DNA of 64,000 bases from Bacteroidota bacterium. Lineage in GTDB: Bacteria > Bacteroidota > Bacteroidia > CAILMK01 > JAAYUY01. Numbering within the stretch: the first letter of the stretch is position 1; the number at the start of each line of letters is the position of its first letter. The stretch covers positions 6,946 through 70,945 of the forward strand of contig JADHTG010000009.1 of the NCBI GenBank assembly GCA_016776505.1, written 5' to 3'. Made by a program: the position numbers and the translations under genes. Below, in pieces: positions 10,591 through 63,406 of this stretch. The notes under the pieces were generated by a model. That model saw only the letters and a list, made by a program, of their open reading frames with translations. It made no database searches and had not been told where the DNA came from.

Positions 10591-11353
10591 ATTAGTTTTA
10601 ATCATATGGATGATTGTAACGACATTCATCAGTTATAGTCAGAATGAGCATCATTTGGTCAGAAAAGGAAATAAGCTTTATTCCAAAGACCAATTTGGAG
10701 ACGCTGAGGCAAAATATAAGAAAGCGCTGGAAGTAGATCAAAAACACTATGAAGGCAGCTTTAACCTGGGTGATTCTTATTTTGAGCAAGGCAGATTTGA
10801 TGAGGCTATAACACAATTTACAATAGCTGCCCATTCAACCGATGATGATATTTATAAAAACAAGGCTTATTACAATCTTGGAAACGCAAATCTGGAGGCC
10901 TTTAAAAGCATCAATCAAAGTGCAGATCAGGAAGACATGCAGAAAAAAATGCAGTACCTTGACAACAGCATTGAAGCCTACAAAAATGCATTGAAAATCA
11001 ATCCTCAAGATCAGGAATCCAAGTACAATCTTTCTTATGCACTGAAACATAAGCCAGAAGGAGGACAACAATCCAAGCAGCAAAATAAGGATCAGGAAAA
11101 CAAAGACCAGGAAGAAAAAGAGAAAGAAAAGCAAGAAGAAAAAAAGCAGAATCAGGATCAACAAAAAAACAAGGACAAACAAGAAAAAGAGAACAAACAG
11201 CAAGCTCAACCAAAACCTGATGAACAGAAAATGGATAAGCAGGAAGCAGAAAAACTATTGAAAAAACAAGAAGAAAAAGAAAAAGATGTGCAGAAAAAAG
11301 TCTTGCAAAAAAAAGAAAAGCCAGTTAAAGTGAAAATTGAGAAGGAATGGTAA
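10583..11353 (+). CDS. batC: BatC-like TPR protein with K/E/Q-rich low-complexity tail
   Basis: N-terminal signal/TM segment and TPR repeats (AEAKYKKALEVDQKHYEGSFNLGDSY), followed by a roughly 100-aa KEQ-rich tail. Its position in the bat operon supports the call. Confidence 0.65.
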   Translation: MYKLVLIIWMIVTTFISYSQNEHHLVRKGNKLYSKDQFGDAEAKYKKALEVDQKHYEGSFNLGDSYFEQGRFDEAITQFTIAAHSTDDDIYKNKAYYNLGNANLEAFKSINQSADQEDMQKKMQYLDNSIEAYKNALKINPQDQESKYNLSYALKHKPEGGQQSKQQNKDQENKDQEEKEKEKQEEKKQNQDQQKNKDKQEKENKQQAQPKPDEQKMDKQEAEKLLKKQEEKEKDVQKKVLQKKEKPVKVKIEKEW

Positions 11354-13931: not shown

Positions 13932-13948
13932 TCCTTTAATTCACGGAC

Positions 13949-13974
13949 TCACTGTCCCCTTAGGCAGACAGTGA
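13949..13974. terminator. Hairpin between convergent batE and plsC (stem tcactgtc/gacagtga)
   Basis: 8-bp inverted repeat with a 10-nt loop, read from the sequence in the 80-bp convergent intergenic gap. Confidence 0.35.
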
Positions 13975-14012
13975 AAGGACAGCTGAAAATAATTTGAAGG
14001 AATACAGTTTCT

Positions 14013-18843: not shown

Positions 18844-19440
18844 TTATACTTTTTTTGCTATTAGAATCAGGTTATTTGATTTGCCGTCATGTAACAATCC
18901 TTCTTTCAAAAGCACTTCTTTTTCCTCAAATTTAATAAAATCCAGTCCATTAAAATCATTTTCAAGCATTTCCTTATTGTAAAGTAATTCAAGATTTTTA
19001 GGTCCTCCGGTGCTATTATTTATTTGTGCTTTTTCAAATGCCATCAGTAAAATGTATCCACCTGTTTTTAATGACTTGATCATTCTTTTGTGCACCATTT
19101 CGCGTATGGAAGGATGTAGATGTAAGTAAATCAAAGCAATGGCATTGTAATGATCTTCCACCAGTTCATAATCCATGACATCAGAAACGCTATAATTTAT
19201 CTGTACATGATTCGCTTTTGCAAGTTTCATTGCCTTCTTTTTCCCTTCTACACTAAAATCTACAGCATCCACTATCCACTTGTGTTTTGCGGCATAGACT
19301 GCATTCCGTCCTTCTCCTTCAGCAGCAAATAAAATTCGGCCTGCTTCGGATTGATCAATAAACTCTTTGACAAGGATATTGGGTGCTTTGCCATATATGT
19401 ATTCTTTATCAGTATAGCGCTGATTCCACATTTCTTTCAT
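18844..19440 (-). CDS. Class I SAM-dependent methyltransferase (TehB/small-molecule MTase-like)
   Basis: SAM-binding motif I region (ILFAAEGEGRNAVYAA) followed by an acidic post-I motif (VDAVDFS). Confidence 0.65.
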   Translation of the reverse strand: MKEMWNQRYTDKEYIYGKAPNILVKEFIDQSEAGRILFAAEGEGRNAVYAAKHKWIVDAVDFSVEGKKKAMKLAKANHVQINYSVSDVMDYELVEDHYNAIALIYLHLHPSIREMVHKRMIKSLKTGGYILLMAFEKAQINNSTGGPKNLELLYNKEMLENDFNGLDFIKFEEKEVLLKEGLLHDGKSNNLILIAKKV

Positions 19441-19459
19441 ACGAAATTGAATAGATATT

Positions 19460-19590
19460 CTAAGTTTCTCCTGCTAAAAATAAGTTTTGCGTTCAGTCGA
19501 AAAAACTTCGATTTCACATGCATTTTTTTCATTTCTCTTTTTGAAATTTCAAAGGATAAAAAATACCTGTATATTTGAAAAATAATTCAT
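19460..19590 (+). repeat. Copy A of a conserved ~120-nt intergenic promoter module
   Basis: ctaagtttctcctgctaaaaa...gttcagtcgaaaaaacttcgatttcacatgcattttttt...tttgaaatttcaaaggataaaaaatacctgtatatttga. Confidence 0.6.
19570..19577 (+). promoter_or_regulatory. Bacteroidetes-type -7 box TATATTTG with upstream palindromic TTGAAATTTCAA (-33 region)
   Basis: Matches the TAnnTTTG consensus about 19 nt upstream of the ATG at 19596. It is part of a roughly 120-nt module also present upstream of 37357. Confidence 0.45.
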
Positions 19591-19595
19591 TTGAG

Positions 19596-20342
19596 ATGAA
19601 ATTATTAACCAAAAATTTAGCCAATATTTTCACCCTGACAAATCTCTTTTTAGGATTTACCGGTATAATTAATACACTATATGGTGATCCTGTGGCAGGA
19701 GCTTTATTATTGATTCTTGCAGCCGTTTTTGATTTTTTAGATGGGGCAACTGCCAGGATACTAAAATCTCAAAGCAAACTGGGCAAACAACTTGATTCGC
19801 TAGCCGATATTGTTAGTTTTGGGATTCTGCCAGCCACCATATTACATGTCCTGTTAATTAAATCTCACCAGGATTGGATTTATCGGATGCATTTTACGGG
19901 CCTTCCATTGGTCAGCTTGCTTGCTTTTATTTTTGTTATTGCAGCTGCTTTGCGACTGGCAAAATTTAATCTGGATGATAATCAACTTCACGTTTTTAAA
20001 GGATTACCAACCCCTGCTGCTGCTTTATTTGTTGCTGCATTGCCATTAATCATGCGTTTTGATTTATACGTCTTGAGCTATGAATCTTTTTATCTTGAAA
20101 GCATCATTCTAAATCCCTGGGTTCTCCTGTTGATCACATTCGGATTATCCTTTCTTATGTTATCCAATATTCCACTTTTGGCGATTAAATTTTCAGATTG
20201 GTCATGGGAAAATAATATGCCTAAATACCTCCTGCTACTTATTTCGATTCCACTCTTTATCTTTCTGTTATTTCTTGCAATACCCATTATTATTATGCTA
20301 TATATTGCCTTTTCTTTCATTTTTAAAACGAAGATCCAATGA
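19596..20342 (+). CDS. CDP-alcohol phosphatidyltransferase (phosphatidylserine synthase-like)
   Basis: CDP-OH_P_transf motif DFLDGATARILKSQSKLGKQLDSLADIVSFG in a multi-TM protein. The ORF track opens at a TTG (19575), but the ATG at 19596 (MKLLTKN...) is the more likely start. Confidence 0.7.
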   Translation: MKLLTKNLANIFTLTNLFLGFTGIINTLYGDPVAGALLLILAAVFDFLDGATARILKSQSKLGKQLDSLADIVSFGILPATILHVLLIKSHQDWIYRMHFTGLPLVSLLAFIFVIAAALRLAKFNLDDNQLHVFKGLPTPAAALFVAALPLIMRFDLYVLSYESFYLESIILNPWVLLLITFGLSFLMLSNIPLLAIKFSDWSWENNMPKYLLLLISIPLFIFLLFLAIPIIIMLYIAFSFIFKTKIQ

Positions 20343-21661
20343 AACGTTTTTTGATTGTAGTTTTATTTTCGCTCCTTTGGGTGTTTGTTCAAGCACAGGA
20401 TCTGGAGTATGCAAAATCCATTGTGGATAGGTTATGTGCAGAAGATATGCATGGAAGGGGATACCTTAATGCAGGGGATAAGAATGCAGCCTATTTGATT
20501 GAAAATGAGTTCAAGAGCTTTAAGCTGTTGCCTTATAATATCATAGAAGGGACCATTGGAAGCCAGAAAGGCAAAAAAATAAGGAATTATGTGCAGGAGT
20601 TCAGCATGAAAGTCAACACTTTTCCCACTGAAGTGAGACTGATTGTGGATGGAATTGAATTGAAAGCCGGAACGGATTTTATATTAAAGCCATCCTCAGG
20701 TCCTATTGCAGATAAAGAGCTGGACCTCTATTTCCTGACAAAGAAAAACATCAAAGATGAAGCTGCTTATGATGATTTTTCCTTTGAAGATTATACAGCT
20801 GTTTGTGTGGTAGTTGATCAAGCTGAATTTGCAAAGGAAAAGGACAATGAATATTTAAAATTGGTGATGGAAAATGATATGAGAGCCGATGCGGTGATGT
20901 TGTTAGCTTCCGGATCGTTGATGTGGGGTGTCAGCCAGACATTTGACAAATTCCCGACCTATATTGTTCAAAAGGAAAAACTTCCTAAAAAAGCAGCTTT
21001 GATTGAAGTTTTGCATGAAACAAAGTATTACTATAGCTATAAATCTCAAAATGTGATTGGAAAAATTGAAGGTAAAACCCATCAGGATAAATATATAGTA
21101 ATAGGTGCACATTATGATCATTTAGGTAAACTGGGCAACCAGGTTTATTATCCCGGAGCGAATGACAATGCAAGCGGAGTAGCTATGATGCTGGATATAG
21201 CAAAACACTACAGCGATGTGTTCAGCCAACCGGAGTACACAATGATATTTGTTGGATTTGGAGCTGAAGAAGCAGGATTTCTTGGTTCAAAATATTTTGT
21301 TGAAAATCCTCCTGTTCCATTAAAAGATATTCGCTTAATGATTAATTTTGATATGATGTCGACAGGGGAAGGAGGCCTGATGGTGGTAAATGCTGAAAAG
21401 AACAGTGGCGATTTTAGTAAAATCAACCAGATCAATAGCAGGAAACAATATCTGGAAACCTTAATGTCAAGGCCTGAAGCTGCCATAAGCGATCATCATT
21501 TTTTTCATAAAGCGGGAGTGCCTGCTTTGTATTTCTACCTGATGGGCGCAAAGGAAAAGGATTATTTTTATCATAATCCGGGAGATGTTCCTTCCAATGT
21601 CAGCATGACTGGTTACGTTGCTGCATTTAAGTTGATTACAGAGTTTATTGATGCGCTGTAA
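20339..21661 (+). CDS. M28 family zinc aminopeptidase (secreted)
   Basis: Signal peptide and M28 metal-binding motifs (HYDHLG, GANDNASGVAMMLDIAK, EE pair). Confidence 0.8.
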   Translation: MKRFLIVVLFSLLWVFVQAQDLEYAKSIVDRLCAEDMHGRGYLNAGDKNAAYLIENEFKSFKLLPYNIIEGTIGSQKGKKIRNYVQEFSMKVNTFPTEVRLIVDGIELKAGTDFILKPSSGPIADKELDLYFLTKKNIKDEAAYDDFSFEDYTAVCVVVDQAEFAKEKDNEYLKLVMENDMRADAVMLLASGSLMWGVSQTFDKFPTYIVQKEKLPKKAALIEVLHETKYYYSYKSQNVIGKIEGKTHQDKYIVIGAHYDHLGKLGNQVYYPGANDNASGVAMMLDIAKHYSDVFSQPEYTMIFVGFGAEEAGFLGSKYFVENPPVPLKDIRLMINFDMMSTGEGGLMVVNAEKNSGDFSKINQINSRKQYLETLMSRPEAAISDHHFFHKAGVPALYFYLMGAKEKDYFYHNPGDVPSNVSMTGYVAAFKLITEFIDAL

Positions 21662-36017: not shown

Positions 36018-37127
36018 CTAAAGATTCCTCCATATTGCCCCATACACCTCTTCCACTGATATATCCCGCATACAATGCCTTTCCCGGGAGCAAGAAGTGC
36101 CATAATAACAATCGCAACCTGAAGAAGGGGAAATGATTTCACCCCTATTGTAAAGTTCAAACTCATTTTTATTGAAAATATTCACAAACAGTATCATGGG
36201 TTTTTTCAACCCGGTGGCTATGTGCATCATCATGGAAACAGCAGTAACAATTAAATCCGTGTTGTTTGTCAAAGCAATAAATTCCTGCAGGGAATAGGTG
36301 CCCGGGTAATAACAGCCGGTTTTTTCAGCATAGATTTTATTTTGAGCATCTTCATCCGGTCCACCTAAAACAACAGGACAATAATCATTTTGCTGCAATT
36401 TTTGAATGAGTTCAATCCAATATTCAGTTGGCCATAGTCGGGTCAGCCAGCGGTTTCCACAACCTGTATTCAGGCCGATGATTTTTTTTCCATTTGCTTT
36501 ATCTCCTAAAATCTTCATCCATTTGCTGTCAAAATCAGGATCCACATCCAGCAGGTATTCTTCGAAATTGAATTTAAAATGGCAGATTTCAAAAATCTCT
36601 TCCAGGTAACTTTTGGTATTGGCTTGTGAAACAGAATCATAAAGACCGGTTATAAGTTTATGTTCAGCTGCGGGGGTTGCTGGAGCCATATGATTATCCT
36701 TCAGCGAAAAGCCATATTTTTCTTCTGCTTGCAGTTCATTCAGTAATGAACAGGCCTCAAATTCTTTATCCAGGTTGATGGCTATATCAAACTTTTTATT
36801 TCTCAAAATATAGGCGGAAGTAAAGTTCCATTTATAAATCTGGTCAATATTCTTTTTGGAAAGAATATCCGGGAAATGTGTCAACCAGCTAATATGGCAA
36901 TCGGGATATAAGTCTTTAAATTTAACAACCAGGGGAGTTGTTCTTATCACATCACCAATAGCTCCGAGTTTAATAATTAAAATACGTTTGGAAACTGGAG
37001 TATACTCATCGCAACTGTCACAAATTTTGTTTCGTTCTTTGTTTGGCTTACACGGAAAATCTCCGATGAAATATTTGCAATCAAATTTTACCTTGGACAA
37101 ATTCATTATGAATGCATTTAGGCACAC
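36018..37127 (-). CDS. Glycosyltransferase family 9 (heptosyltransferase-like) with Cys-rich N-terminal extension
   Basis: GT9 N-terminal motif RILIIKLGAIGDVIRTTPL, preceded by a C-x8-C-x9-C-x2-C segment. Confidence 0.7.
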   Translation of the reverse strand: MCLNAFIMNLSKVKFDCKYFIGDFPCKPNKERNKICDSCDEYTPVSKRILIIKLGAIGDVIRTTPLVVKFKDLYPDCHISWLTHFPDILSKKNIDQIYKWNFTSAYILRNKKFDIAINLDKEFEACSLLNELQAEEKYGFSLKDNHMAPATPAAEHKLITGLYDSVSQANTKSYLEEIFEICHFKFNFEEYLLDVDPDFDSKWMKILGDKANGKKIIGLNTGCGNRWLTRLWPTEYWIELIQKLQQNDYCPVVLGGPDEDAQNKIYAEKTGCYYPGTYSLQEFIALTNNTDLIVTAVSMMMHIATGLKKPMILFVNIFNKNEFELYNRGEIISPSSGCDCYYGTSCSRERHCMRDISVEEVYGAIWRNL

Positions 37128-37191
37128 AAAGATAAAAAGGAATTCTTTAGTTTAAGATTGAGAATTAGCCCAGTCTGGTAATTGCTTAATT

Positions 37192-37350
37192 CTTAACTTT
37201 CTCCTGTAAAAACAAAAATTTTGTTTTAAAAAAATTACAAAATCTATGTGTTCAGTCGGAAACAATTCGCTTTCACATCTATTTTTTCCATTTGACTTTT
37301 GAAATTTCAAACGTTAAAAAATACATGTATATTTGATTCAAATTTAATAA
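37192..37350 (+). repeat. Copy B of the same intergenic promoter module (with a roughly 25-nt insertion)
   Basis: cttaactttctcctgtaaaaa...gttcagtcggaaacaattcgctttcacatctatttttt...tttgaaatttcaaacgttaaaaaatacatgtatatttga. Confidence 0.6.
37328..37335 (+). promoter_or_regulatory. Bacteroidetes-type -7 box TATATTTG with upstream palindromic TTGAAATTTCAA
   Basis: Identical 40-nt core to the element at 19540-19580, located 22 nt upstream of the prolyl oligopeptidase ATG. Confidence 0.45.
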
Positions 37351-37356
37351 AGCATC

Positions 37357-39471
37357 ATGAGAAATTTATCCTGGCTTATAGTTTTTGCATTATTATTTGC
37401 CTGTAATAAGAAGCCTGAAAATAAGAAGATTGTATATCCGGAAACGAAAAAAGTAAATCAGGTGGACGATTATTTCGGAACTGAAGTAGCAGATCCCTAC
37501 AGGTGGCTTGAAAATGATACTTCATCTGAAACCGCAGAATGGGTGGCCATGCAAAATGATTTGACCAGGGCTTACCTGGATTCCCTGCCGTACCTGGAAA
37601 AAATAAAGGACAGGCTGACCCAATTATGGGATTATCCCAGGCAAGGTGTACCTGTAAAAGGAGGAAATAATTATGTTTTCGGCAAGAATGACGGTTTACA
37701 AGCCCAAAGCGTGTTATATATCATGAAGGGTTTAGATTCTATACCTGAGATTTTCCTGGATCCAAATAAACTTTCAGATGATGGGACAGTAGCTTTATCG
37801 TCCTATAAATTATCTAAGAATGGAAATTATTTCGCCTATGCTATTTCCAGGAGTGGTTCCGACTGGAATGAGATTTATATCATGGATGTGGAAAGCAAAA
37901 GCCAGCTTACTGACCATTTGGAATGGGTGAAGTTCTCTGGAATTTCATGGCATGGGGATGGGTTTTATTATTCAAGATATCCTGCGCCCAAAAGTGGAAC
38001 TGAATTATCTGCCCTCAACCAGAACCATTCTATCTACTATCACCAGCTAGGTACAGACCAAAGTGATGACATACTAGTATTCAATGATCCGTTAAATCCT
38101 TCTTACAGTTATTATGGGGGAGTTACTTATGATAATCGTTTCATGCTTGTTTACGGAAGTGAATCAACAAATGGAAACTCGCTGAGATTCAGAAGAGTAC
38201 AGGATAATTCAAAAGACTTTAAGCTCATTGATGAAGGATTCAATTATAATTTTAATGTGGTTGATAACATAGGTGATTCATTATTGATCTTGACCAATAA
38301 GGGAGCTTCTAATTATCGTCTGGCTGTGGTTGATACAAAAGATCCTGATTTAAAATTGAAAGACTTGATCCCCCAGCAGGATTTTCCATTGCAGAGGGCA
38401 AGTGTCACAGGAGGAAAGATTTTCGCTCAATATATGAAAGATGCCACCGATCATGTTTTTATGTATGATCTGAATGGAAGCTTTATCAAAGAAATTGATA
38501 TGCCTGGTCCGGGATCCATTTCAGGGTTCAGTGGCCATTCAGACGACAGCCTGGTTTTTTATTCCTATACCTCCTTTATCTCCCCATCATCGATTTATCT
38601 GTTTGATGTTAAAAAACAGACTTCTGAGTTATATTTTGAATCGGAAATTAATTTCGATTTCAGGGAATATGAAAGTAAACAGGTCTTTATTAGCAGCAAA
38701 GATGGCACGCAGCTTCCTTTATTTATCACGCATAAAAAGGATATAAAACTGGATGGAAACAATCCAGTTCTTTTATATGGCTATGGGGGATTCAACATCA
38801 GCTTGTCGCCTTCCTTTTCAATTACCAACCTGGTTTTTCTCGAACATGGAGGGATTTATGCCATGGCCTGTTTAAGAGGAGGAGGAGAATATGGTGAAGA
38901 CTGGCATAAGGCAGGTATGCGACTGAATAAGCAAAATGTATTCGATGATTTTATTTCCGCAGCTGAATATCTGATAAATAAAAAATATACAAAATCAGAT
39001 AAAATGGCTATTCGGGGAGCATCAAATGGTGGTTTATTGGTAGGTGCATGTCTTGAGCAGCGTCCAGATTTGTTCAAGGTGGCTTTACCCGCTGTTGGGG
39101 TAATGGATATGCTACGATATCAACGATTCTCAGCAGGAGTTTTTTGGGTGGATGAGTATGGCAGTAGTGACGAAAAAGAGATGTTTGACTATATTTATCG
39201 CTACTCCCCACTGCACAATATAAAAAGTGGCGTGAATTATCCTGCCACTTTGGTCACCACAGCCGATCATGACGACCGGGTGGTTCCCGCTCATTCATTT
39301 AAATTCATTGCCACACTACAGGAACATCAAAAAAGCACGAATCCGGTGCTTATCAGGATCAGTGAAAAAGCAGGACATGGTTCTGGTAAACCCACACAAA
39401 AAATAATTGAAGAATATGCTGACATGTGGACCTTCGTTTTCAAAAATTTGAATATAAAAGTGATTTACTAA
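37357..39471 (+). CDS. Prolyl oligopeptidase family S9A (secreted/lipoprotein)
   Basis: N-terminal beta-propeller plus C-terminal catalytic domain with GASNGGLLVGA nucleophile elbow and the D and H of the triad; lipobox LFACNKK. Confidence 0.9.
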   Translation: MRNLSWLIVFALLFACNKKPENKKIVYPETKKVNQVDDYFGTEVADPYRWLENDTSSETAEWVAMQNDLTRAYLDSLPYLEKIKDRLTQLWDYPRQGVPVKGGNNYVFGKNDGLQAQSVLYIMKGLDSIPEIFLDPNKLSDDGTVALSSYKLSKNGNYFAYAISRSGSDWNEIYIMDVESKSQLTDHLEWVKFSGISWHGDGFYYSRYPAPKSGTELSALNQNHSIYYHQLGTDQSDDILVFNDPLNPSYSYYGGVTYDNRFMLVYGSESTNGNSLRFRRVQDNSKDFKLIDEGFNYNFNVVDNIGDSLLILTNKGASNYRLAVVDTKDPDLKLKDLIPQQDFPLQRASVTGGKIFAQYMKDATDHVFMYDLNGSFIKEIDMPGPGSISGFSGHSDDSLVFYSYTSFISPSSIYLFDVKKQTSELYFESEINFDFREYESKQVFISSKDGTQLPLFITHKKDIKLDGNNPVLLYGYGGFNISLSPSFSITNLVFLEHGGIYAMACLRGGGEYGEDWHKAGMRLNKQNVFDDFISAAEYLINKKYTKSDKMAIRGASNGGLLVGACLEQRPDLFKVALPAVGVMDMLRYQRFSAGVFWVDEYGSSDEKEMFDYIYRYSPLHNIKSGVNYPATLVTTADHDDRVVPAHSFKFIATLQEHQKSTNPVLIRISEKAGHGSGKPTQKIIEEYADMWTFVFKNLNIKVIY

Positions 39472-39472
39472 T

Positions 39473-40726
39473 ATGGTCCTCAAATCCCGTTTTATATTGC
39501 TTCTCATTATCCCTTTGTTTTTGAACACCCTGGATTCGCATGCTCAATTAGCAGGCTGTACGGATTCAAGAGCAAACAATTACAATCCCATTGCCACGAT
39601 AAACGACGGATCCTGTCTCTATGACAAAACAATAGTTAATCCCAGGGTTGTTATTCCTGAACTGCCTTTGAATTTATTTGAAAACAGTGGAATGATCAGT
39701 TTCAACGGGCTGTTATGGTTCCATAATGACAGTGGAGGAGAAGCAGAATTATATGGCCTGGATTCCCTTACAAATGAAATCAAAGCGACAATCAGGCTTA
39801 CCAACGCCACAAATACTGACTGGGAGGATGTATGCCAGGATAGTTTGTTTGTATATGTAGGTGATTTTGGAAACAATACAGGTACACGATCAGACTTGAA
39901 GATTTACAGAATAGATAAATCAGTTTTTCCGGATACAGGAACAGTGAACGTTTATGCAAATAGCATTGCGTATTTCTATCCGGATCAGGTAGATTTCACA
40001 GAGAGAAATAATAAACACAATTTCGATTGTGAAGCTTTTTTCATTCATTCAGATCACATGTATTTATTCTCTAAAAACTGGGTAAATGAATGGACCAAGG
40101 TTTACAGAATACCGACACAACCTGGAACTTATGTGGCTGGTTTAGTGGATTCATTTAATGTAAAAGGCTTAATTACTTCAGCTGATTTTGATGAGGCCAG
40201 GCAGGAGCTTGCCTTATTGGGATATCAGAACTATGTACCCTTTTTCTGGTTGATGTTTGACTTCCATGGCAATGATTTTTTTTCGGGAAACAAAAGAAGG
40301 TTTGACTTCCCTTTTACTCAAATTGGTACACAGGCGGAAGCTTTGATCTTTCATCCAGACAATGGGATTTATATTTCATCGGAAAAAAGTACGCTTATCG
40401 CCAATAAATTAATGGAAATGCATACATGGCCATGGACCAAAACCTTACATACAGGATTTACAGAAGCTGACTCATCAGAATTTATTGTTTATCCCAATCC
40501 GAATCAGGGGAGTCTTCGCATGAGTCTTCCTGAGAATAATTCAGCAATCATGAATATTCAAATCATTGATTCATCCGGCCGAACTGTTTTTGAATTAAAG
40601 AGTGAACGCATAGTGGATGAAGAAGAAATCGAATTAGACACCCAAAATATTCCAGGAGGTAACTATTTTTTAATCATCACAACAGAATCTGAGATATACA
40701 GGAAAAGTATCCATTTAGTGGATTGA
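39473..40726 (+). CDS. Secreted hypothetical protein with T9SS C-terminal sorting domain
   Basis: Signal peptide, short N-terminal Cys-loop module and a C-terminal T9SS CTD (FIVYPNPNQGSLRMSL...GGNYFLIITTE). It starts 2 nt after the peptidase stop. Confidence 0.55.
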   Translation: MVLKSRFILLLIIPLFLNTLDSHAQLAGCTDSRANNYNPIATINDGSCLYDKTIVNPRVVIPELPLNLFENSGMISFNGLLWFHNDSGGEAELYGLDSLTNEIKATIRLTNATNTDWEDVCQDSLFVYVGDFGNNTGTRSDLKIYRIDKSVFPDTGTVNVYANSIAYFYPDQVDFTERNNKHNFDCEAFFIHSDHMYLFSKNWVNEWTKVYRIPTQPGTYVAGLVDSFNVKGLITSADFDEARQELALLGYQNYVPFFWLMFDFHGNDFFSGNKRRFDFPFTQIGTQAEALIFHPDNGIYISSEKSTLIANKLMEMHTWPWTKTLHTGFTEADSSEFIVYPNPNQGSLRMSLPENNSAIMNIQIIDSSGRTVFELKSERIVDEEEIELDTQNIPGGNYFLIITTESEIYRKSIHLVD

Positions 40727-42176: not shown

Positions 42177-45100
42177 TTGAAAAATCTATACCTGTTTTTT
42201 AGATTTCTTAAATGCTGTTCTTTCATCCTGGTTTTCAACATCTGTTGCCATTCTGTACATGCCCAGGTAACAGTATATACTGAAAACTTTGAGCACGGGA
42301 GTAATATGCCTTCTGGTTGGTCCCAGGAATATGTTTATGATACTTTAAACTGGATTTTTACCAGTGGAGGTCAAAGTGGTCACCCATCGGCTGCACATGG
42401 TGGCAGCTACAATGCATTATTGTATTATGGAGGGATATACAGAACAACCAAACTGATTTGCAAACCTCTTAACCTAACTCCATATTCTAATTTACAATTG
42501 AAGTTCTGGCATACACAGGAAGAATATTCAGGAGACCAGGATAAATTAAAAGTATTTTACAAGACTTCAGCAAGTGGTAGCTGGGTTCAATTAGCAAGCT
42601 ATACAACGAATGTTTCCTCCTGGACGCAACGTACTATTACCTTACCAAATCCAAGTTCCAACTATTACATTGCATTTGAAGGTGAAGCCAGATATGGATA
42701 TGGTGTATGTGTTGATGATGTACTGATCACGGGTACTGTTTCAAATGGTTTAGACATCAGTTGTGTCAGTATCTCATCTCCTTTAATTTGGGGAGTAGGT
42801 AATAATACTCTTAAGATCAGCTATAAAAATATGCGTTCAGACACTATTTTCAATGCTGATTTTGGCTATAAATTGGATACGAATACAGCGGTTATTGATA
42901 CGAATAAATCGACTGGAACTTTGCTGGCCAACCAGGAAAAGGATTATACTTTTCCCGCTTCATTGAGTATTAGTAAAGGAAACCATTATATCAAGGTATG
43001 GGCAAACAAACCCAATCGCACAAATCCGGACGATGTGCCTGCAAATGATACATTTACACTGAATTTTGGAACGGGTATCAAGGATACATTCTATATCGAT
43101 AAAAGTGGACAGGGTGATTACACCACTTTTGCCGCGGCAGTAGCTGATTTGAACAACGGGGTTACGGGTCCGGTTTGGTTTATCGTGAAACCAGGTACAT
43201 ATACGGAAAAGGTTGTGATAGGAGAAATTCCGGGTGCGGATTCAACCAATACCATCACATTTGATGGATTGTATAAAGACAGCACATTCCTGTCATATAC
43301 AGGGACTTCTGCAGCAAATAGAGCCACATTATCCTTTAAAGGGGCCGATTATGTGACCTTTAAAAATATGACCATCAAGAATGAGGGCAATACTTATGCA
43401 GTTGCAGTATTGTTAAGGAATAAATCAGACCACAATACATTTTTCAATTGCAACCTGAAGCTGAAAACGACTGTTACCAGCGGATATGCTCAGGTGATAT
43501 TAGCGTCGGCTAAAGAAAATAGTACTGGTGCCAATGGGGATAATTGCAACTATACATCATTTGAAAACTGTTTAATTGAAGGAGGGCAGTATGGTGCCCG
43601 CATGCATGGAACAAATACAGCTTCTATGGCTGTAAATAACAGTTTTGTTAATTGTAATTTTACTAATCAGTGGTATTTTGGATTGTATTTGTATTACCAA
43701 CAAGGATTTAACATCTCTTATTGCAAAGTGGCAAACTTCAGACATGCATCTGCCTATGGTCTAATTAACTATTATGGTGCAGGTTCTAATATAGATGGCA
43801 ATAGTATACAAGCGGGTATTCATGCTCTTTATTTGTATCGTGAAAACTACTATAAACAAAATAATTCTTCTTATGTAACAAACAACATGATATGCAATTT
43901 CAAGAATACAGTATATCAGAGAGGAATATATGCAGTTTCATATTGTTATAACTTAAACATACTTCACAACAGCATTCTTGTTAATGGCACGTCTACTTCT
44001 CCTACTTATGCTGCTATTTATATATATTACTATTGTAATAATTCGGTCATTAAAAACAATTTACTAGCTAGCTTGAATAAGACAAACATTCTTGCCATGC
44101 TTTATGCAGGAACAGTTTCTGTGGATTATAATGACTACTATTATGACACCAACTCAAATGTTAAATTCTATATTAATTACAGTTATGCCAACTTCAACAC
44201 CTTTAAATCCATTGCATCCTATATCAACTATCCACATGACCTGAATTCCTTTGATAATGTGAATCCCGGATTTGTTTCAAATACCAACCTGCATCTTGAT
44301 ACATTAAGTTCCATAAGCCTGATGGCCCCGGCAGCTGGCATTTCAAACGACTTTGATAATGAAAGCAGAAATTTGAATTTTGGAGTAAATTTAGGAGCTG
44401 ATGAAATCCCACATCCAAACCGTGACCTGGATATCATTAGTATTGATACACCTGCCGTGCTTAAGTCGGGCTCCAATATCGTTTCCATAACACTTCGAAA
44501 TATGGGTACCGATTCCATTGTACCACAAAAACTTTACCTGAATTATAGGCTAAATGGTGGAAATCCTGTAAATGATTCTTTGACGCTAAGCTCGAAATTA
44601 CCTCCTTTCGGCAGTATAAAATTTTCGTTTCAAACACCTGTAAATATTACAGGATCCGGAAGTTATGAATTCTGTGTTCAACTAAGCCCCGGGATATACA
44701 ATGATCCGGATAGCCTGGATGAGTTATGTGTCACCAAATGTCTGGGTAAAATAGATACCTTTATGATCGATCCCAGTGGTAATGGTGATTTTACTACCAT
44801 AATGGCAGCTGTCAATTCACTGCAAACATGTGGTATTTCAGGAGCAGTTACTTTTATTTTAAAAGCGGGAACATATGTTGAGCGGGTTGTAATCCCTGAA
44901 ATCCCGGGTGCAAATTCGGTCCGAACTGTTACCTTTCAAGGTGTTCATAAAGATAGTGTTGTACTTGTCCATGCAGGAACCTCAACAGCAAAATCTGTTA
45001 TTTTGCTAAATAGTGCAGATCATATAGTGATCAAAAATATGAGAGTATTAAATAATGGAAACAGTTATGCGAGCTGCATCCATTTTATGAATGGAGCTGA

Positions 45101-48100
45101 TTCTAATACTGTTGAGAACTGTGACCTGACAGTTAGTACAGCAACTTCTTCCTATAAAATTCCGGTAATAGCTTCTAATTCAGAGTTATATTATAATACA
45201 TATGGAAATACTGCCAATGGAAACCTGATAAAAAATAATAAGATTTCAGGTGGTTATCATGGTATATGTATGGTAGGAACTGATAAAAATAATCTTTGTT
45301 GGAATAACCGGATAATTGGAAATACAATTAAGGATCAATATTATATGGGGATTTATAATATTTATCAGGGTAATACTGAGATCATTGGGAATAGCATTAA
45401 GAATCTGGATTTGTATTATGCATATGGCATTTACAGGTATTATTGCACTAAAGCGAGGATAGAATCCAATGTGATACAGCCAGGACGGATTGGAATATAT
45501 CTTAATCGTGAGAATAACCTTTTCCCAGATAACAGTACACACATCATTAATAATATGATTAGTAATTTTAATGACGGCACCTATCAAGCTGGTATTTATA
45601 CTTATTATTACAGCACTAAACTGAAAATTTATCACAACAGTATTTATTTAGATGGAAATGTTTCCTCCATAACTTATGCCGGACTTTCCTTGTATTATTA
45701 TTGTGATTCGGCCATTGTCAAGAATAATCTGATTGCCAGTGATGGAAGTAACTACCTGATGACTTCTTATATATCAAGGGGTACAATTATCGATTACAAT
45801 AGTTACTATGCTCCTAATAACACATCCTATAAATTCTATAATTCAGCCTCTTTTACTAATTTAAGCGCATACAAAAATTCTACTGCATATCTGGTTTACC
45901 CACACAATGTAAACTCCTTCGAAAATATTAATCCGGGCTTTATTTCGCTTGCCAATCTTCATCTATCCTCTAATTCTGCAGGTATTGGAGGAGATACATT
46001 GGGCATATTATATGATATAGATGGGGATTATCGCTGCCAGGCCAGTCCCAGTCTGGGTGCTGATGAAGCAGGACCCGTATCTGACTTTAGCATTAATTCT
46101 GCAACACAATGTATGGATGGGCATATTTTTATATTGAATAATACTTCTCAGGGAGGCACTGCCACTCTATCCTATTTTTGGACCTTTGGTGATGGAGATA
46201 CATCTACTTTAAGAAATCCTGTTCATTCCTATGCATCTCCGGGGACTTATACAATTACACTGATAGTCTATCCAAGTTTTGGTTGTTCAGATACCACCTC
46301 TAAAACTGTTACCGTCAATCCTTCCCCTCAAATTGGTTTCACTGTGAATGATAGTACTCAATGTCTCCAGAATAACAATTTTAATTATCAGAATACAACT
46401 ACCATCAGTTCAGGCAGCTTAACTTATAATTGGAATTTTGGAGATGGTTATTCTGCCGGAGTTCAAAATCCTACACATTCATATGGATATAGTGACACTT
46501 TTGCAGTCAGGTTAATTGTGGGCAGCGATCTGGGCTGTGTGGATACGCTCATAAAAAATATGTATGTGTTTCCCATGCCAGATGCTGATTTTACTATTAA
46601 TAGCGGTGCTCAGTGTAAATTGAACAATAATTTTATTTTCACAAATACCACAAGCATTTCATCAGGTACACTGACTTTTTTCTGGGATTTTGGGGATGGA
46701 AATACATCCACTCAAATGAGTCCTGCACACTCTTATGCTGCAAACGGGAATTATGATGTAAAACTGACAGCAACTTCTGCCTTTGGTTGCATGGATTCAG
46801 CTTTAAAAAATACATTTGTTTATCCGACACCAACAGCTACTTTTACTGTTAATGATACGGACCAATGTTTGAACGGGAATCTATTCCAAATCACAAACTC
46901 ATCCTTTGTAAGTTCAGGATCACTGACTTATTATTGGACTTTTGGGGATGGAAATTCATCCAGCCAGTCAAATCCTTCTTATTCTTATTCTGCTACTGGA
47001 ACCTATCTCATAAAATTAATAGTATCCACAACAAATTCTTGTGTAGATTCCGCACAGCAGTATGTCATAGTTCATCCTTCCTTAATTGCTGATTTCAGCA
47101 TTAACAATGTAAATCAATGTTTAAAAGGCAATAATTATATATTCACCAATGCAACTACCACCACTAATGGTACGATGAGCTATTACTGGGATTTTGGTGA
47201 TGGATCCGTTTCCACTTCGACCAGTCCGACCCATGTTTACAGCATTTTTGGAGCATTAGATGTAAAATTAGTTGCCAGTTCAACAAACAGCTGTTCAGAT
47301 ACGATATCTAAACCTGTCCAAATTTACTCCATGCCTCTGAACGTGAAGGATACATCACTGTCAAACCGGCTTTCAGACAGTTTACTTGCTTGGTATCCTT
47401 TTATTGGTAATGTAAATGATCACAGTGGTTTGTCAAATAACGGAACGGTATATGGAGCAAGTTTAAGCAATGATCAATGCAGTCGAAGTGATAGTGCATA
47501 TTATTTTGACGGCAATGATTATCTCAGGGTGCCTCATGCAGTCTTTTTAATACCCCAGAATAGCTACGCTGCATCAGCCTGGATCTATCCAACTCAATCA
47601 GGTGGTACGCAATATATCCTTTACAAATATCAAAGCAATTTATACAAAGGCTATTCTATTGCCTTATATAACAATAAAATAGCTGCTGATTTTGGAGGAA
47701 GTTTGAATCCTGTTTATTCAACCCAAAGTGTTAATTTAAATGAATGGAACCATATTGTCGTTAGTTACGATGGCTGGAATTATAAAATGTACCTGAATAA
47801 TCAGGTGGTTGGATCGGGCATTGCAGCCAATAATTTTCAATCAATCACGCCTTTATACATAGGCTCCAGGGGAACTGCCAACTATTTTAAAGGCTATCTT
47901 GACGAAGTCAGGATTTACGATAAGTCGCTGGACAATGTTGAAATAAATGCACTTTATCATGAAATACCCTACGTTCAGCTAAAAGATACTTTTGTTTGTT
48001 CTGGTAACTCCACTTCCATTTACATCCATAATTCAGGAGTTGGAATTGGCTACCAGTTAAAAGACTATGGAACTGGGAGTTCAATAGGCTCAGTAGTCTA

Positions 48101-51100
48101 TGGAAATGGATGCAGGATCAGTTTGAGCACAGGAACCATCAGCAGCCAAAAGCAAATTCAAATTGTTGCCACTGATTCAAGCACTTCCTGCCAGCAGATA
48201 TTTGATACACTAATTACAATAATTCTGGCTCCCGTACCAACAGCTGCGTTTACTGTATCTCCCACTTCATCCTGTCTTTCCGGTAATCATTTTACACTTA
48301 CAAATTCATCATCCGTGAGTTTTGGTTCCTTACAATTTAAGTGGGATTTTGGAGATTTAAATACTTCAACACTGACCAGCCCGACACACCAATATACCTA
48401 TGCGGATACTTTTACTATTAAACTGACCACTACAACCACATACGGTTGCAGCGATTCCTTAGAGAAATCAGTAAGGGTATTCCCCCAACCCAATGCAGAT
48501 TTCACTATAGCAGATAGTATTCAATGTTTGGGTAATAATGCATTCGCATTTGTTAATAATTCAACTATCTTGAATGATACATTGAGTTACCTTTGGGATT
48601 TTGGAGATGGAAATAAATCTACAACTAAGAATCCGGTTCATTCCTATTCTTATGCAGACACCTTCCAGGTGAAATTAATTGTCAGTTCAGGAAATGGATG
48701 TACAGACTCCATGATTAAAACGACATACCTGCATGTCAATCCAAATCCAACCGCCGGGTTTAGCATCAATGACAGTACTCAATGTTTGAACGAAAATAAC
48801 ATATCCCTGACAAACTCATCCAGCATCAGTGCAGGTACTATGAATTTTAGCTGGAGATTGGGTGATGGGAACACCTCCACTGCAACAAATCCAAGTTATC
48901 AATACAGTGCTTATGATACCTTTGATATAACGCTACTGGTCGTTTCAGATAAAGGCTGTACTGATTCAGTCATGCACCAGGCTTATATTTATCCCAATCC
49001 GAACAGTTCGTTTTCAATAAATGATACGGTTCAGTGCTTTACAGGAAATGTGTTCAGTTTCACAAATCTCACAAGCATCCCTTATGGATCTTTTACCTCC
49101 TGGTGGTCTTTTGGAGACGGATCTTTTTCGACAACAAGCAATCCAACCCATTCATTTACTCAGCCTGATACATTTACAGTTCAATTGTTATCCACTTCAA
49201 ATTATGGATGTTTGGATTCTGTTCAGTCTAATGCTATTGTAGAACCCAGTCCTGTTGCTGGTTTTACTGTTAACGATACCACACAATGCCTGGATGGCAA
49301 TAGTTTTTCATTTACTGATCTGTCAGTAGGTGGTTCTGGAACCATATATTACTATTGGACTTTTGGAGATGGATCAGGCTCAACAGCTCAAAACCCGGTT
49401 CATTCTTACTCCACTGCAGGCACTTACCAGGTTAAGTTATTAATCCATTATGGTGCTTTCTGCAAGGATTCCATGCAAAAACAAATTGTGGTGTATCCCA
49501 CGCCGATTGCCGATTTTAGTGTAAATGACTCAACTCAATGTCTGACCAACAACAGCCTCTCGTTCACAAATTTGTCCAGCATCACATCTGGTTCCATGAG
49601 TTATTTCTGGACATTTGGTGATGGCAGTTCAAGTACAGCCACGAATCCCACGCATAGCTATAATACAGACGGCACTTACCAGGTTCAATTACTTGTTATT
49701 TCATCGGAGGGCTGCAGTGATTCAATATCTTCAAGTATTCAAATTTGGCCTGTGCCAACAGCATCCTTTAGCATCAATAACACTTCCCAGTGTTTTGGCG
49801 GAAACAGCTTTGGCTTTAACAATACTTCCTCCATAAAATCAGGATCATTGACATACCTTTGGACCTTCGGGGATGGAAATTCATCTTCTTCAGCATCACC
49901 GTCCTATTCTTATTCAAGTCCGGGTAGCTATAGTGTGAAATTGGTGGTCAGTTCTGCTTATTCCTGCCAGGATTCTGTAACGCAAAATGTGCTGGTAAGT
50001 CCTATGCCAATTGCAGATTTTACAATCAGTAATGACACTCAATGTTTAGATGGAAATACATTCTATTTTTACGATTCTTCAATCATTTCATCTGGCAGCA
50101 TCAGTTACAATTGGAATTTCGGGGACGGATCCACTTCCAATCTTCAGAATCCAGGTCATTCCTATCTCAATCCGGGTAGTTATGCTGTTAAACTTCTGAT
50201 CAGTTCGGATAAGGGATGTCTTGACTCCCTCAGCAAAACGGCACTTGTGAATCCGAATCCTGTAGTAAGTTTTAGCGTCAACGATACAGACCAGTGTTTG
50301 AATATCAATCATTTTGTAATTAGCAATAACAGTTCAATAAGTTCAGGAACTTTAAGCTATTCCTGGGATTTTGGGGATGGATCCAGCTCTGATTCAAGCA
50401 ATCCGGTCAAGCAGTATAGCACAGCGAATACTTTCACGATCAAGTTAATAGTAAATAGTAATAATTATTGTACAGACTCCATGTCCCAAAAGGTTATTGT
50501 ATTCCCAAATCCTCAATCAGATTTTAGTGTAAACAGCGATAGTCAATGCTTTGCCTCAAACCAGTTTGTCTTTACGAATTCATCTTCCATAGCAGCTGGT
50601 AGTTTAGTTTATTTGTGGAGTTTTGGCGACAGTCAAAATGATACTGCTCAGCATCCTGTACATTCCTATGCTTCAAACGGAAGCTACCAGGTTCAATTAA
50701 TCAGTAGCTCCCCGAATGGATGTGTCGATACAGCTACAAAATCCATGACTGTTTTAGCAAGCCCCGAGGCTTCATTTACAGTGAATGATACCGACCAATG
50801 TTTGACGAACAATAGTTTTGTACTTTCCAATACATCAACCATCAACTCGGGGAATTTGTATTATTTATGGGATTTTGGTGATAATTCGACTTCAGCCAGC
50901 AAAGATACAAATCATACCTATGCGACAGACGGAATTTACCAGCTGAAGCTTTTAGTAAGTTCAGGCTTCAATTGCAGCGATTCTGCTTATCAGGCATTAT
51001 ATGTTTATCCAATCCCGGTGGTTGATTTCAGCATTAATGATACAAATCAATGCCTGACAGAAAATCTGTTTGCCCTTACAAACACCTCCTCGATTTCAAC

Positions 51101-63035: not shown

Positions 63036-63042
63036 GAGCAAA

Positions 63043-63406
63043 GGTGGAGCCGGGGAGATTCGAACTCCCGTCCAGAGATAGCGTACTAAATGCTTTCTAC
63101 ATGCTTATTTTCAGTTGATTTTAACCAAAGCAGGTCTGAAAATACCGGACTTTGGTCTGAGTCCCTTCGATTTTCGTTCCTGACTCAGGACATGACAGGA
63201 CTTATTCTGTTATTTCGGTCCTTCCGATTCAACCGCCAACAGACGGGGCAGTTGGGAAAGATTAGCGTAGCTTAATCCTAGATTAGGCAGCTAAAGAATA
63301 ATTATATTCGCCTATTAATGTTGTGCGACCGCTTTTTACGGGATCTATCGCTTGACCCGGCATGCTTACAAATACCACTCCTAACCTGTCAATTCCAGTC
63401 GGCCCC
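63043..63406 (-). ncRNA. ssrA: tmRNA (SsrA), tag peptide GEYNYSLAA
   Basis: The minus-strand 3' end is ...GGACGGGAGUUCGAAUCUCCCCGGCUCCACC (T-arm plus acceptor, read as tggtggagccggggagattcgaactcccgtcc on the plus strand). The 5' end is GGGGCCGACUGGAAUUGACAGG. An internal ORF reads ggc gaa tat aat tat tct tta gct gcc taa = GEYNYSLAA* (stop at 63282-63284). Confidence 0.85.

What the first reader, a model, noticed from the sequence alone, without database searches (positions are those of the whole stretch)
19460..19590. ~120-nt conserved intergenic module duplicated upstream of two unrelated genes (19596 PssA-like and 37357 prolyl oligopeptidase)
Seen in sequence: regions 19460-19590 and 37192-37350 align over about 110 nt (tttctcctg(c)taaaaa ... 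gttcagtcgRaaa ... cgMtttcacatNcatttttt ... tttgaaatttcaaaSgNtaaaaaatacMtgtatatttga), apart from a roughly 25-nt insertion in copy B. The 40-nt core is almost identical. It contains a perfect 12-bp palindrome TTGAAATTTCAA at about -33 and a TATATTTG -7 box, matching the Bacteroidetes sigma-A consensus TTG/TAnnTTTG. Both copies sit in divergent intergenic regions and face the plus-strand gene. The similarity extends well beyond what a promoter needs, suggesting a shared regulatory site (the palindrome is an obvious operator candidate), a 5' leader element, or a small mobile/duplicated promoter cassette.
Basis: seen in the sequence. Interest (0 to 1): 0.5.

Follow-up and report, generated by a model that had tools for sequence, protein, structure and literature searches.

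The report
Duplicated promoter cassette inserted into two promoters
An uncultured Bacteroidota species carries two copies of a 109/134-base AT-rich DNA segment, each inserted at the same position inside the promoter of an unrelated operon and apparently replacing it, which is a clean but fairly ordinary case of a promoter being copied within a genome.

Summary
A (19488-19578) and B (37247-37336) are 84.6% identical over 91 nt (z=27 against shuffles). Among 190 real intergenic pairs in the window the next best score is 35, against 110 for A-B. A shorter left arm extends the similarity.

Three related lineages lack the segment at the pssA locus and one lacks it at the POP locus. The unit is discrete: A 19468-19576 (109 nt) and B 37201-37334 (134 nt). 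It starts CTCCTG and ends TGTATATTT. In both loci it lies between TTT and G of the resident sigma-A -7 box (relics TAAGTTT and TAACTTT). Removing it restores the relatives' spacer length (46 vs 43 nt; 116 vs 119 nt) and a TAnnTTTG box, with the native 5' UTRs.

The cassette brings its own -33 region (14-bp palindrome TTTGAAATTTCAAA at -42..-29), spacer and TATATTT. It therefore most likely serves as the promoter of both operons.

It lies upstream of the inferred start sites. It has no conserved reading frame, no significant fold and no Rfam match, so it is not a leader RNA.

No other copy was found in 71 kb of this genome, 137 kb of relatives, GTDB genomes, JGI metagenomes, plasmids or phages.

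Still open is how it spread: by homology-guided copying between the two promoters, or as a small non-autonomous mobile element. It fits the published "putative mobile promoter" class.

The parts
19461..19467 (+). Relic of the resident pssA -7 box (TAAGTTT). Its final G is now 109 nt away.
   Evidence: It is contiguous with the native upstream flank, which aligns to the relatives' TAAATTTG box (L011, L015, L023).
19468..19576 (+). Cassette copy A (109 nt). It starts CTCCTG and ends TGTATATTT.
   Evidence: 86.9% identical to copy B over aligned columns. Removing it leaves 46 nt that align end to end with L011's 43-nt spacer (33/49).
19540..19553 (+). 14-bp perfect palindrome TTTGAAATTTCAAA, at about -42..-29 from the inferred start site. 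It contains TTTC 19 nt upstream of the -7 box.
   Evidence: Geometry taken from the -12..-5 position of TAnnTTTG (PMC9723704).
19570..19577 (+). Active -7 box TATATTTG, made of the cassette's TATATTT plus the resident G. The inferred start site is at about 19582 and the native 14-nt 5' UTR runs to 19595.
   Evidence: The 5' UTR aligns to the L015 UTR (p=0.026).
19596..21661 (+). Downstream operon A: CDP-alcohol phosphatidyltransferase (pssA-like, 19596-20342) followed by an overlapping M28 peptidase (20339-21661).
   Evidence: Pfam. The same gene pair occurs in all relatives.
37127..37134 (-). -7 box (TATCTTTG) of the divergent GT9 gene. It is not part of the cassette, but it anchors the orthology of the B spacer.
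   Evidence: Conserved block CAAAGATA in the window, L011 and L016.
37194..37200 (+). Relic of the resident POP -7 box (TAACTTT).
   Evidence: Identical to, and collinear with, the L016 box TAACTTTG. The spacer alignment has z=9.6.
37201..37334 (+). Cassette copy B (134 nt). Relative to A it carries 27 extra nt in two blocks, within about 37216-37246, and it holds a perfect 9-bp hairpin at 37209-37227.
   Evidence: Removing it leaves 116 nt against 119 nt in L016 (82/125 identical).
37298..37311 (+). The same 14-bp palindrome in copy B. In B it extends to an imperfect 28-bp palindrome (37291-37318).
37328..37335 (+). Active -7 box TATATTTG of copy B. The inferred start site is at about 37340 and the native 17-nt 5' UTR runs to 37356.
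   Evidence: The UTR resembles the L011 POP UTR (p=0.036).
37357..40726 (+). Downstream operon B: prolyl oligopeptidase S9 (37357-39471) followed by a protein with a T9SS C-terminal sorting domain (39473-40726).
   Evidence: Pfam; gene calls.

Best explanation
This is a portable promoter cassette present twice in this species.

Shown:
- A discrete 109/134-nt AT-rich segment sits at the same register, between TTT and G of the resident sigma-A -7 box (TAAnTTT^G), in front of two unrelated operons 17.8 kb apart and in the same orientation.
- Relatives have the uninterrupted box and a spacer shorter by the length of the segment.
- The 5' UTRs are native.

Inferred:
- The cassette's own right end (TATATTT) plus the resident G forms a new consensus box TATATTTG. 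The cassette also supplies the spacer and the -33 region (the palindrome with TTTC at 19-nt spacing).
- Both operons would then be transcribed from the cassette's promoter, starting near 19582 and 37340. The old upstream promoter parts are pushed 109-134 nt away and the old box lacks its G.
- pssA is a housekeeping gene, so the cassette promoter must be active.

Most likely route of spread (inferred, about even odds against the mobile-element rival): copying from one promoter to the neighbouring one by template switching or short-patch conversion. This would be guided by the similarity between the recipient's -7 box and the two -7-like boxes that flank the cassette in the donor, with no dedicated transposase.

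The palindrome may bind a regulator, but nothing requires that.
For: - The similarity is far above chance.
- There are only two copies in the window, none in a further 7.2 kb of the same genome, and only A and B are significant in a profile search of 208 kb.
- The cassette is absent at the orthologous pssA site in three lineages, whose spacers are 43, 64 and 98 nt with a TAAATTTG box. It is absent at the POP site in L016, whose spacer is 119 nt with TAACTTTG.
- In-silico excision restores the spacer length and end-to-end alignability at both loci.
- The UTRs are native.
- TATATTTG lies at -26/-29 from the ATG, like other TAnnTTTG boxes in this window at -21..-35. Box position relative to the start site is from PMC9723704. 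The Bacteroides -33 TTTG / -7 TANNTTTG consensus is from PMC9330008.
- The flanking genes are unrelated.
- It meets the published criteria for putative mobile promoters (PMC3488235).
- The junctions carry box-like homology on both sides (TAAnTTT / TATATTT).
Against: - No transcription data exist. The start sites and the inactivity of the relic boxes are inferred from consensus only.
- The -33 match is TTTC rather than TTTG.
- Homology-guided copying explains one transfer but not how the first locus acquired the cassette at exactly the same register. Two gains at the same register fit a site-specific insertion mechanism just as well.
- The junction homologies are only about 3-7 nt long.
- The rest of the genome could not be searched, so the copy number is unknown.
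Confidence: 0.45

Rival explanations
1. A small non-autonomous mobile element, mobilised in trans. The closest models are ends-only derivatives (PATEs) of IS200/IS605-type HUH transposons, which have no terminal inverted repeats and no target duplication, insert 3' of a short specific sequence and carry a hairpin near each end. It would insert specifically after TAnnTTT in sigma-A -7 boxes and carry an outward promoter at its right end. Functionally this equals the best explanation; only the way it spreads differs.
For: - Two independent gains occurred at exactly the same register of the same motif and in the same orientation.
- The ends are better conserved than the middle (18/19 left, 35/38 right, 40/50 middle).
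- There are no terminal inverted repeats and no true target duplication.
- B has hairpin-capable repeats near both ends: a perfect 9-bp stem at 37209-37227, and arms at 37275-87 / 37316-28.
- The B minus strand folds better than shuffles (z=-3.07).
- Family features are from PMC7290912.
- A precedent exists: the Neisseria Correia MITE prefers -10-like targets and creates promoters (PMC9330008).
- A Y1 transposase-like gene occurs near this locus in a related lineage (L011).
Against: - Only two copies were found in 71 kb, and they are 13-15% diverged with a 25-nt length difference.
- There is no transposase gene in the window.
- Copy A's left hairpin is degenerate and its folding is no better than shuffles.
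- Exact-pattern scans of GTDB genomes, JGI metagenomes and IMG/VR, and blastn against plasmids and phages, found nothing.
- AT-rich DNA forms such small hairpins easily.
Confidence: 0.35
2. A shared operator or regulon site. The similarity would be kept by selection because one transcription factor binds the palindrome and upstream boxes to co-regulate the two peptidase-containing operons.
For: - The 14-bp perfect palindrome is identical in both copies and overlaps the -33 region.
- Both operons contain a peptidase (M28 and S9).
Against: - Selection on a binding site cannot explain 86.9% identity over about 107 aligned nt, or the discrete insertion boundaries.
- Identity in the core is not significantly higher than in the flank (p=0.14).
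- The palindrome is absent from the promoters of the orthologous operons in relatives.
- No third site exists in the window within one mismatch apart from two unrelated near-matches, which is consistent with chance.
Confidence: 0.05
3. The segment is ancestral at both loci and was precisely deleted in the relatives by slippage between the flanking 7-nt direct repeats.
For: The flanking imperfect direct repeats (TAAnTTT / TATATTT) could mediate a precise deletion.
Against: - This needs at least three independent deletions at the pssA locus (L011, L015, L023) plus one at POP, against two gains.
- The relatives' boxes (TAAATTTG, TAACTTTG) match the left relic rather than a hybrid with TATATTT.
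Confidence: 0.05
4. A transcribed element: a cis-regulatory 5' leader, a small RNA or a small peptide gene.
For: A long open frame crosses each copy. The relic boxes lie upstream and could in principle still fire.
Against: - A 1-nt indel shifts the frame between the copies, and the translation has no protein relatives.
- Folding z-scores are +0.77 and -1.19 on the plus strand and no structure is shared.
- No Rfam match exists at gathering score or at E<0.1.
- The similarity stops at the -7 box, and the relic boxes lack the consensus G.
Confidence: 0.03

Closest known systems
Putative mobile promoters (Matus-Garcia et al. 2012, PMC3488235)
   Same: Highly similar upstream regions (over 50 nt at 80% identity or more) in front of non-homologous genes in one genome, with unrelated upstream genes. 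Two-member families are included. The proposed routes are mobile elements, non-autonomous elements or recombination-mediated duplication.
   Different: That study was a catalogue without ancestral-state reconstruction. Here the empty sites in relatives show the exact unit and show that it splits the resident -7 box at both loci.
IS-borne outward and hybrid promoters, e.g. IS elements upstream of cfiA in Bacteroides fragilis (reviewed in PMC9330008)
   Same: Inserted DNA supplies a Bacteroidota-type promoter to the adjacent gene. The junction can form a fusion promoter from element and resident sequence.
   Different: Those are full insertion sequences of about 1-2 kb with a transposase and inverted repeats. 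This unit is 109-134 nt, has no coding capacity and no inverted terminal repeats.
Correia elements (CREE) of Neisseria, a MITE with a -10-like target preference (PMC9330008)
   Same: A small non-coding repeat that inserts at promoter-box-like targets and alters or creates promoters.
   Different: Correia elements have 26-bp terminal inverted repeats, a TA target duplication and hundreds of copies. None of these features is seen here.
IS200/IS605 family and its ends-only derivatives, PATEs (PMC7290912)
   Same: No terminal inverted repeats, no target duplication, oriented insertion 3' of a short specific sequence, and hairpins near the ends.
   Different: No Y1 transposase was found in the available 71 kb. 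Hairpins are clear only in copy B. Only two copies are known.
Regulatory switching / horizontal regulatory transfer of promoter regions (Oren et al. 2014; cited from my own knowledge, mentioned in PMC5890482)
   Same: A gene's promoter region is replaced while the coding sequence stays.
   Different: That process replaces a whole intergenic region by recombination in the flanking genes, usually from another strain. Here a discrete segment was inserted inside the promoter and has a paralogue in the same genome.

Membership tests
Putative mobile promoter (PMC3488235) | Upstream regions of two genes in one genome align over more than 50 nt at 80% identity or more | tested here: met
   91 nt at 84.6%, E=5e-23. 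Whole unit 86.9% over 107 aligned columns.
Putative mobile promoter (PMC3488235) | Downstream coding sequences are not homologous | tested here: met
   PF01066 CDP-alcohol phosphatidyltransferase versus PF02897/PF00326 prolyl oligopeptidase.
Putative mobile promoter (PMC3488235) | Upstream coding sequences are not homologous | tested here: met
   Methyltransferase (PF13649) versus GT9 heptosyltransferase (PF01075).
Bacteroidota sigma-A promoter | -7 box TAnnTTTG at a plausible distance from the start codon | tested here: met
   TATATTTG lies 26 and 29 nt before the ATGs. Other first genes in the window have the box at -21..-35. Consensus.
Bacteroidota sigma-A promoter | -33 element TTTG about 19-21 nt upstream of the -7 box | tested here: inconclusive
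   TTTC at 19-nt spacing; TTTG only at 26 nt. The -33 regions of other promoters in the window are also weak.
Bacteroidota sigma-A promoter | Mapped transcription start 5 nt after the box | not testable with these tools
   No transcriptome data are available. Positions 19582 and 37340 are inferred.
IS200/IS605-type ends-only element (PATE) | No terminal inverted repeats and no target-site duplication | tested here: met
   No terminal inverted repeat was found. The flanking 7-mers match only 5/7, and the right one is identical in both copies, so it is carried by the element.
IS200/IS605-type ends-only element (PATE) | Insertion 3' of one specific tetra- or pentanucleotide, in one orientation | tested here: inconclusive
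   Both copies follow TAAnTTT in the same orientation, but n=2.
IS200/IS605-type ends-only element (PATE) | Hairpin near each end | tested here: inconclusive
   B has a 9-bp stem at 37209-37227 and arms at 37275-87 / 37316-28. In A the left hairpin is degenerate. Folding z is significant only for the B minus strand.
IS200/IS605-type ends-only element (PATE) | A Y1 (HUH) transposase in the same genome and multiple copies | not testable with these tools
   None in the 71 kb available.
Classical MITE (e.g. Correia) | Terminal inverted repeats plus a target-site duplication | tested here: not met
   junction analysis.
REP/REPIN | The unit folds into one long hairpin and occurs in many copies | tested here: not met
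   Plus-strand folds are not better than shuffles (z +0.77 and -1.19). Only two copies are known.
Known cis-regulatory RNA (Rfam 15) | Match to a covariance model at gathering score | tested here: not met
   Only the tmRNA elsewhere in the window passes. The best local matches have E of 0.14 or more and lie far below gathering score.

The most novel reading that the evidence does not exclude
The cassette is a member of an undescribed family of tiny non-autonomous mobile elements in Bacteroidota. The family would recognise the sigma-A -7 box (TAnnTTT^G) as its insertion target and replace the resident promoter with its own. Such an element would rewire transcription by design, and would be present in many copies elsewhere in this genome.
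Probability: 0.3. Interest if true: 0.65.

Novelty: new member of a known kind. Interest (0 to 1): 0.35.

Why it matters
Empty sites in relatives allow the event to be reconstructed to the base, which is unusual for promoter replacement. A housekeeping lipid-synthesis operon and a secreted-peptidase operon now share the same upstream 110 nt, including a palindrome over the -33 region, so they may have become co-regulated. If further copies exist that also split -7 boxes, this would be a promoter-targeting mobile element in a phylum whose promoters differ from the E. coli type. That would interest people who study regulatory evolution and those who build Bacteroidota genetic tools. If there are only two copies, it is one more example of the already catalogued promoter-duplication phenomenon.

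Tried and rejected
**Searches for further copies**
- Exact-pattern scan of 185,579 GTDB genomes with the core. It gave a single hit (L010), which shares only 26 nt, lies at the tail of an ORF and has no other similarity. I treat it as chance. The window's own species is evidently not in that collection.
- JGI metagenome scans with the core and with the upstream half gave nothing. IMG/VR gave nothing.
- Sensitive blastn against plasmids and phages found nothing.
- An nhmmer profile of A+B against 208 kb (window, left extension and relatives) found only A and B.
- Extending the genome: the left side gained 7.2 kb with no copy. The right-side look-up failed.
- I searched the protein database with the open frame of copy B, hoping that gene callers had called spurious ORFs in other copies. 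No candidates were found.

**Ideas dropped**
- I first thought B was ancestral at POP and that its left arm was the relic of the L016 5' UTR, which would fix the direction as B to A. The UTR-level tests do not support this (p about 0.6). The apparent similarity of B to the L011 POP upstream region is marginal (z=2.2) and nhmmer does not see it. The direction of transfer is therefore undetermined.

**Uninformative checks**
- Strain variation: all same-species contigs are identical in A and B, so there is no presence/absence polymorphism to use.

**Rejected readings**
- The leader RNA, sRNA and peptide readings were rejected.
- The classical MITE and REPIN readings were rejected.

Full report
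**1. The observation**

The two regions were read directly.

- Local alignment of the complete intergenic regions (19441-19595 and 37128-37356) scores 110. 1000 dinucleotide-preserving shuffles give mean 22.6, sd 3.2 and maximum 38, so z=26.9.
- blastn reports 84.6% identity over 91 nt (A 19488-19578, B 37247-37336, E=5e-23). It also reports a collinear left arm of 24/28 (A 19457-19483, B 37189-37215).
- As a control with real sequence, I compared all 190 pairs of the window's 20 intergenic regions. A-B scores 110, the next pair 35, and the mean is 21.
- Both halves of the unit occur only at these two places in the window.

The palindrome is 14 bp (TTTGAAATTTCAAA). The exact unit is defined in section 3.

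**2. Context**

The window comes from an uncultured Bacteroidota genome. The source names of identical proteins read 'MAG: Bacteroidetes bacterium'.

- Copy A lies between a divergent SAM-methyltransferase gene (18844-19440, minus strand) and a CDP-alcohol phosphatidyltransferase gene (pssA-like, 19596-20342). The pssA-like gene overlaps a following M28 peptidase gene.
- Copy B lies between a divergent GT9 glycosyltransferase gene (36018-37106/37127, minus strand) and an S9 prolyl oligopeptidase gene (37357-39471). A protein with a T9SS sorting domain follows.
- The flanking genes of A and B are unrelated to each other.
- Contigs of the same species from nine other samples are identical in B, and one is identical in A.

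**3. Comparison with relatives gives the anatomy**

Protein searches found no relative between 77% and 100% identity. I fetched the orthologous loci of three lineages:

| Locus | Gene and identity to window |
|---|---|
| L011-L014 | PssA 77% |
| L015 / L016 | PssA 73%, POP 72% |
| L023-L025 | PssA 57%, POP 57% |

*The pssA locus.* All three lineages keep the divergent methyltransferase-pssA-M28 arrangement. Their spacers are 43, 64 and 98 nt, against 155 nt in the window. Each has a TAAATTTG box shortly before the ATG.

*The POP locus.* L016 keeps the GT9-POP arrangement with a 119-nt spacer, against 250 nt in the window, and a TAACTTTG box. The left 90 nt of the window's B spacer align collinearly with the L016 spacer (z=9.6). 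This alignment includes the GT9 -7 box (CAAAGATA on the plus strand) and the box TAACTTT.

*The unit.* Cutting out 19468-19576 (109 nt) and 37201-37334 (134 nt) gives the following:

| Locus | Spacer left after excision | Relative's spacer | Identity (alignment includes the ATG) | Box restored |
|---|---|---|---|---|
| A | 46 nt | 43 nt (L011) | 33/49, one 3-nt gap | TAAGTTTG |
| B | 116 nt | 119 nt (L016) | 82/125 | TAACTTTG |

- The B box restored by excision is identical to the L016 box.
- The 5' UTRs to the right of the unit are native. A resembles L015 (p=0.026) and B resembles the L011 POP UTR (p=0.036). The unit's left end (CTCCTG...) resembles neither ancestral UTR.

The shared module is therefore a discrete insertion. 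It begins CTCCTG, ends TGTATATTT, and sits between TTT and G of the resident -7 box at both loci, in the same orientation. Parsimony (two gains against four or more precise losses) places both insertions in the window's lineage.

Aligned unit to unit, the copies show 93 matches, 14 mismatches and four gaps. B carries 27 extra nt in two blocks, and it alone has a perfect 9-bp hairpin at 37209-37227.

**4. What it does**

- In flavobacteria the TAnnTTTG box occupies -12 to -5 (PMC9723704). The Bacteroides consensus is -33 TTTG and -7 TANNTTTG (PMC9330008).
- The unit's right end plus the resident G gives TATATTTG at 19570-19577 and 37328-37335.
- This implies start sites near 19582 and 37340 and short native leaders of 14 and 17 nt.
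- The box lies 26 and 29 nt before the ATGs. That is within the range (-21 to -35) of the other exact TAnnTTTG boxes in front of first genes in this window, two of which are also TATATTTG.
- The palindrome spans about -42 to -29 and contains TTTC at the canonical 19-nt spacing.
- The relic boxes now end in C (TAAGTTTC, TAACTTTC) and are separated from the genes by the unit.

I infer that both operons are now driven by the cassette's promoter. pssA is a housekeeping gene, which argues that this promoter is active. These steps are inference from consensus, because no transcript data were available.

**5. What it is not**

- *Not a leader RNA or sRNA.* The similarity stops at the -7 box. Plus-strand folds are no better than shuffles (z +0.77 and -1.19). 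The only notable fold (B minus strand, z -3.07) rests on B-specific sequence. Rfam gives nothing at gathering score and only E of 0.14 or more locally.
- *Not a peptide gene.* A 1-nt indel shifts the only long frame between the copies, and its translation has no relatives.
- *Not a classical MITE or REPIN.* It has no terminal inverted repeats, no target duplication and no long hairpin.
- *Not explained by a shared operator alone.* The palindrome is absent from the orthologous promoters of relatives. Identity in the 38-nt core (35/38) is not significantly higher than in the middle (40/50; p=0.14). Common descent is enough to explain the conservation.

**6. How it spread remains unresolved**

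*Route (a): homology-guided copying between the two neighbouring, co-oriented promoters.* The cassette in a donor is flanked by two -7-like boxes (TAAnTTT and TATATTT), and a recipient's single box can pair with both. This explains the junctions. It does not explain how the first locus acquired the unit at the same register.

*Route (b): a non-autonomous mobile element with target specificity for TAnnTTT^G.* Its features (no inverted repeats, no duplication, oriented insertion 3' of a short motif, hairpins near the ends at least in B) resemble ends-only derivatives of IS200/IS605 elements (PMC7290912). The Neisseria Correia MITE is a precedent for a preference for promoter-box-like targets (PMC9330008).

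Several points count against (b). Only two copies, 13-15% diverged, are known in 71 kb. No transposase is nearby. Nothing similar was found in GTDB genomes, JGI metagenomes, IMG/VR, plasmids or phages, or in 137 kb from relatives.

I put (a) at about 0.45 and (b) at about 0.35.

**7. Relation to what is known**

The pair meets the published operational definition of putative mobile promoters: more than 50 nt at 80% identity or better, upstream of non-homologous genes, with non-homologous upstream neighbours (PMC3488235). That paper lists the same candidate routes. I therefore class this as a new member of a known kind.

The added value here is the base-level reconstruction, which shows that the unit splits the resident -7 box at both sites.

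**8. Verdict**

- Interest is modest (0.35).
- The most novel reading that the evidence does not exclude is a promoter-box-targeting mobile element, with probability about 0.3.

Noticed in passing
window 63042-63406 (-): Full-length tmRNA gene (Rfam RF00023, 146 bits, E=2.7e-57).
   Followed up: no
window 42306-54032 (+): Giant 3908-aa ORF made of dozens of PKD-type repeats with a 252-nt period. Metagenome assemblies of this species break inside it. Gene calls list pectinesterase, PKD and Laminin_G_3 domains.
   Followed up: no
window 60559-61788 (+), inside ORF 59205-62423: Three tandem 465-nt repeats, 74-75% identical to each other, sharing the WDFGDG-like motif of the PKD repeats. The exact protein is not on record in the public gene index.
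   Followed up: no
window 11075-11300 (+): Short-period (15-27 nt) A/G-rich repeats that encode a K/E/Q-rich low-complexity stretch. They lie within the Bat (BatA/VWA/TPR/BatD) operon.
   Followed up: no
window 19575-19577: Public gene calls start pssA at TTG 19575 (255 aa), inside the -7 box. The N-terminus conserved in relatives (MKxLTKNLANIF) supports ATG 19596 (248 aa). This mis-call is why the exact-protein look-ups failed.
   Followed up: partly
L011 3722-4216 (-), and the equivalents in L012 and L014: The related lineage has a 164-187-aa gene with a weak Y1_Tnp (HUH transposase/RAYT-like) match, next to an RNase H gene, between the Bat operon and the acyltransferase gene. Both genes are absent at the corresponding site of the window (13932-14012).
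   Followed up: no
L011 16076-17006 and 18623-20101: Lineage-specific insertions in the relative: a HepT/MNT-type toxin-antitoxin pair between the GT1 and GT9 genes, and an OmpA-like gene plus a 372-aa gene between GT9 and POP. This neighbourhood is rearrangement-prone.
   Followed up: no
window 37127-37134 (TATCTTTG on the minus strand): The -7 box and adjacent 27 nt of the GT9 gene promoter are almost unchanged (25/27) between the window and L011, and are recognisable in L016. The rest of the spacer has diverged.
   Followed up: partly
L010 4310-4335 (-): The only GTDB hit to the 26-nt core pattern. It lies at the end of an ORF just upstream of a 464-aa gene in another Bacteroidetes MAG (JADJPB010000020.1). 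It shows no similarity beyond the 26 nt and I judge it coincidental.
   Followed up: yes
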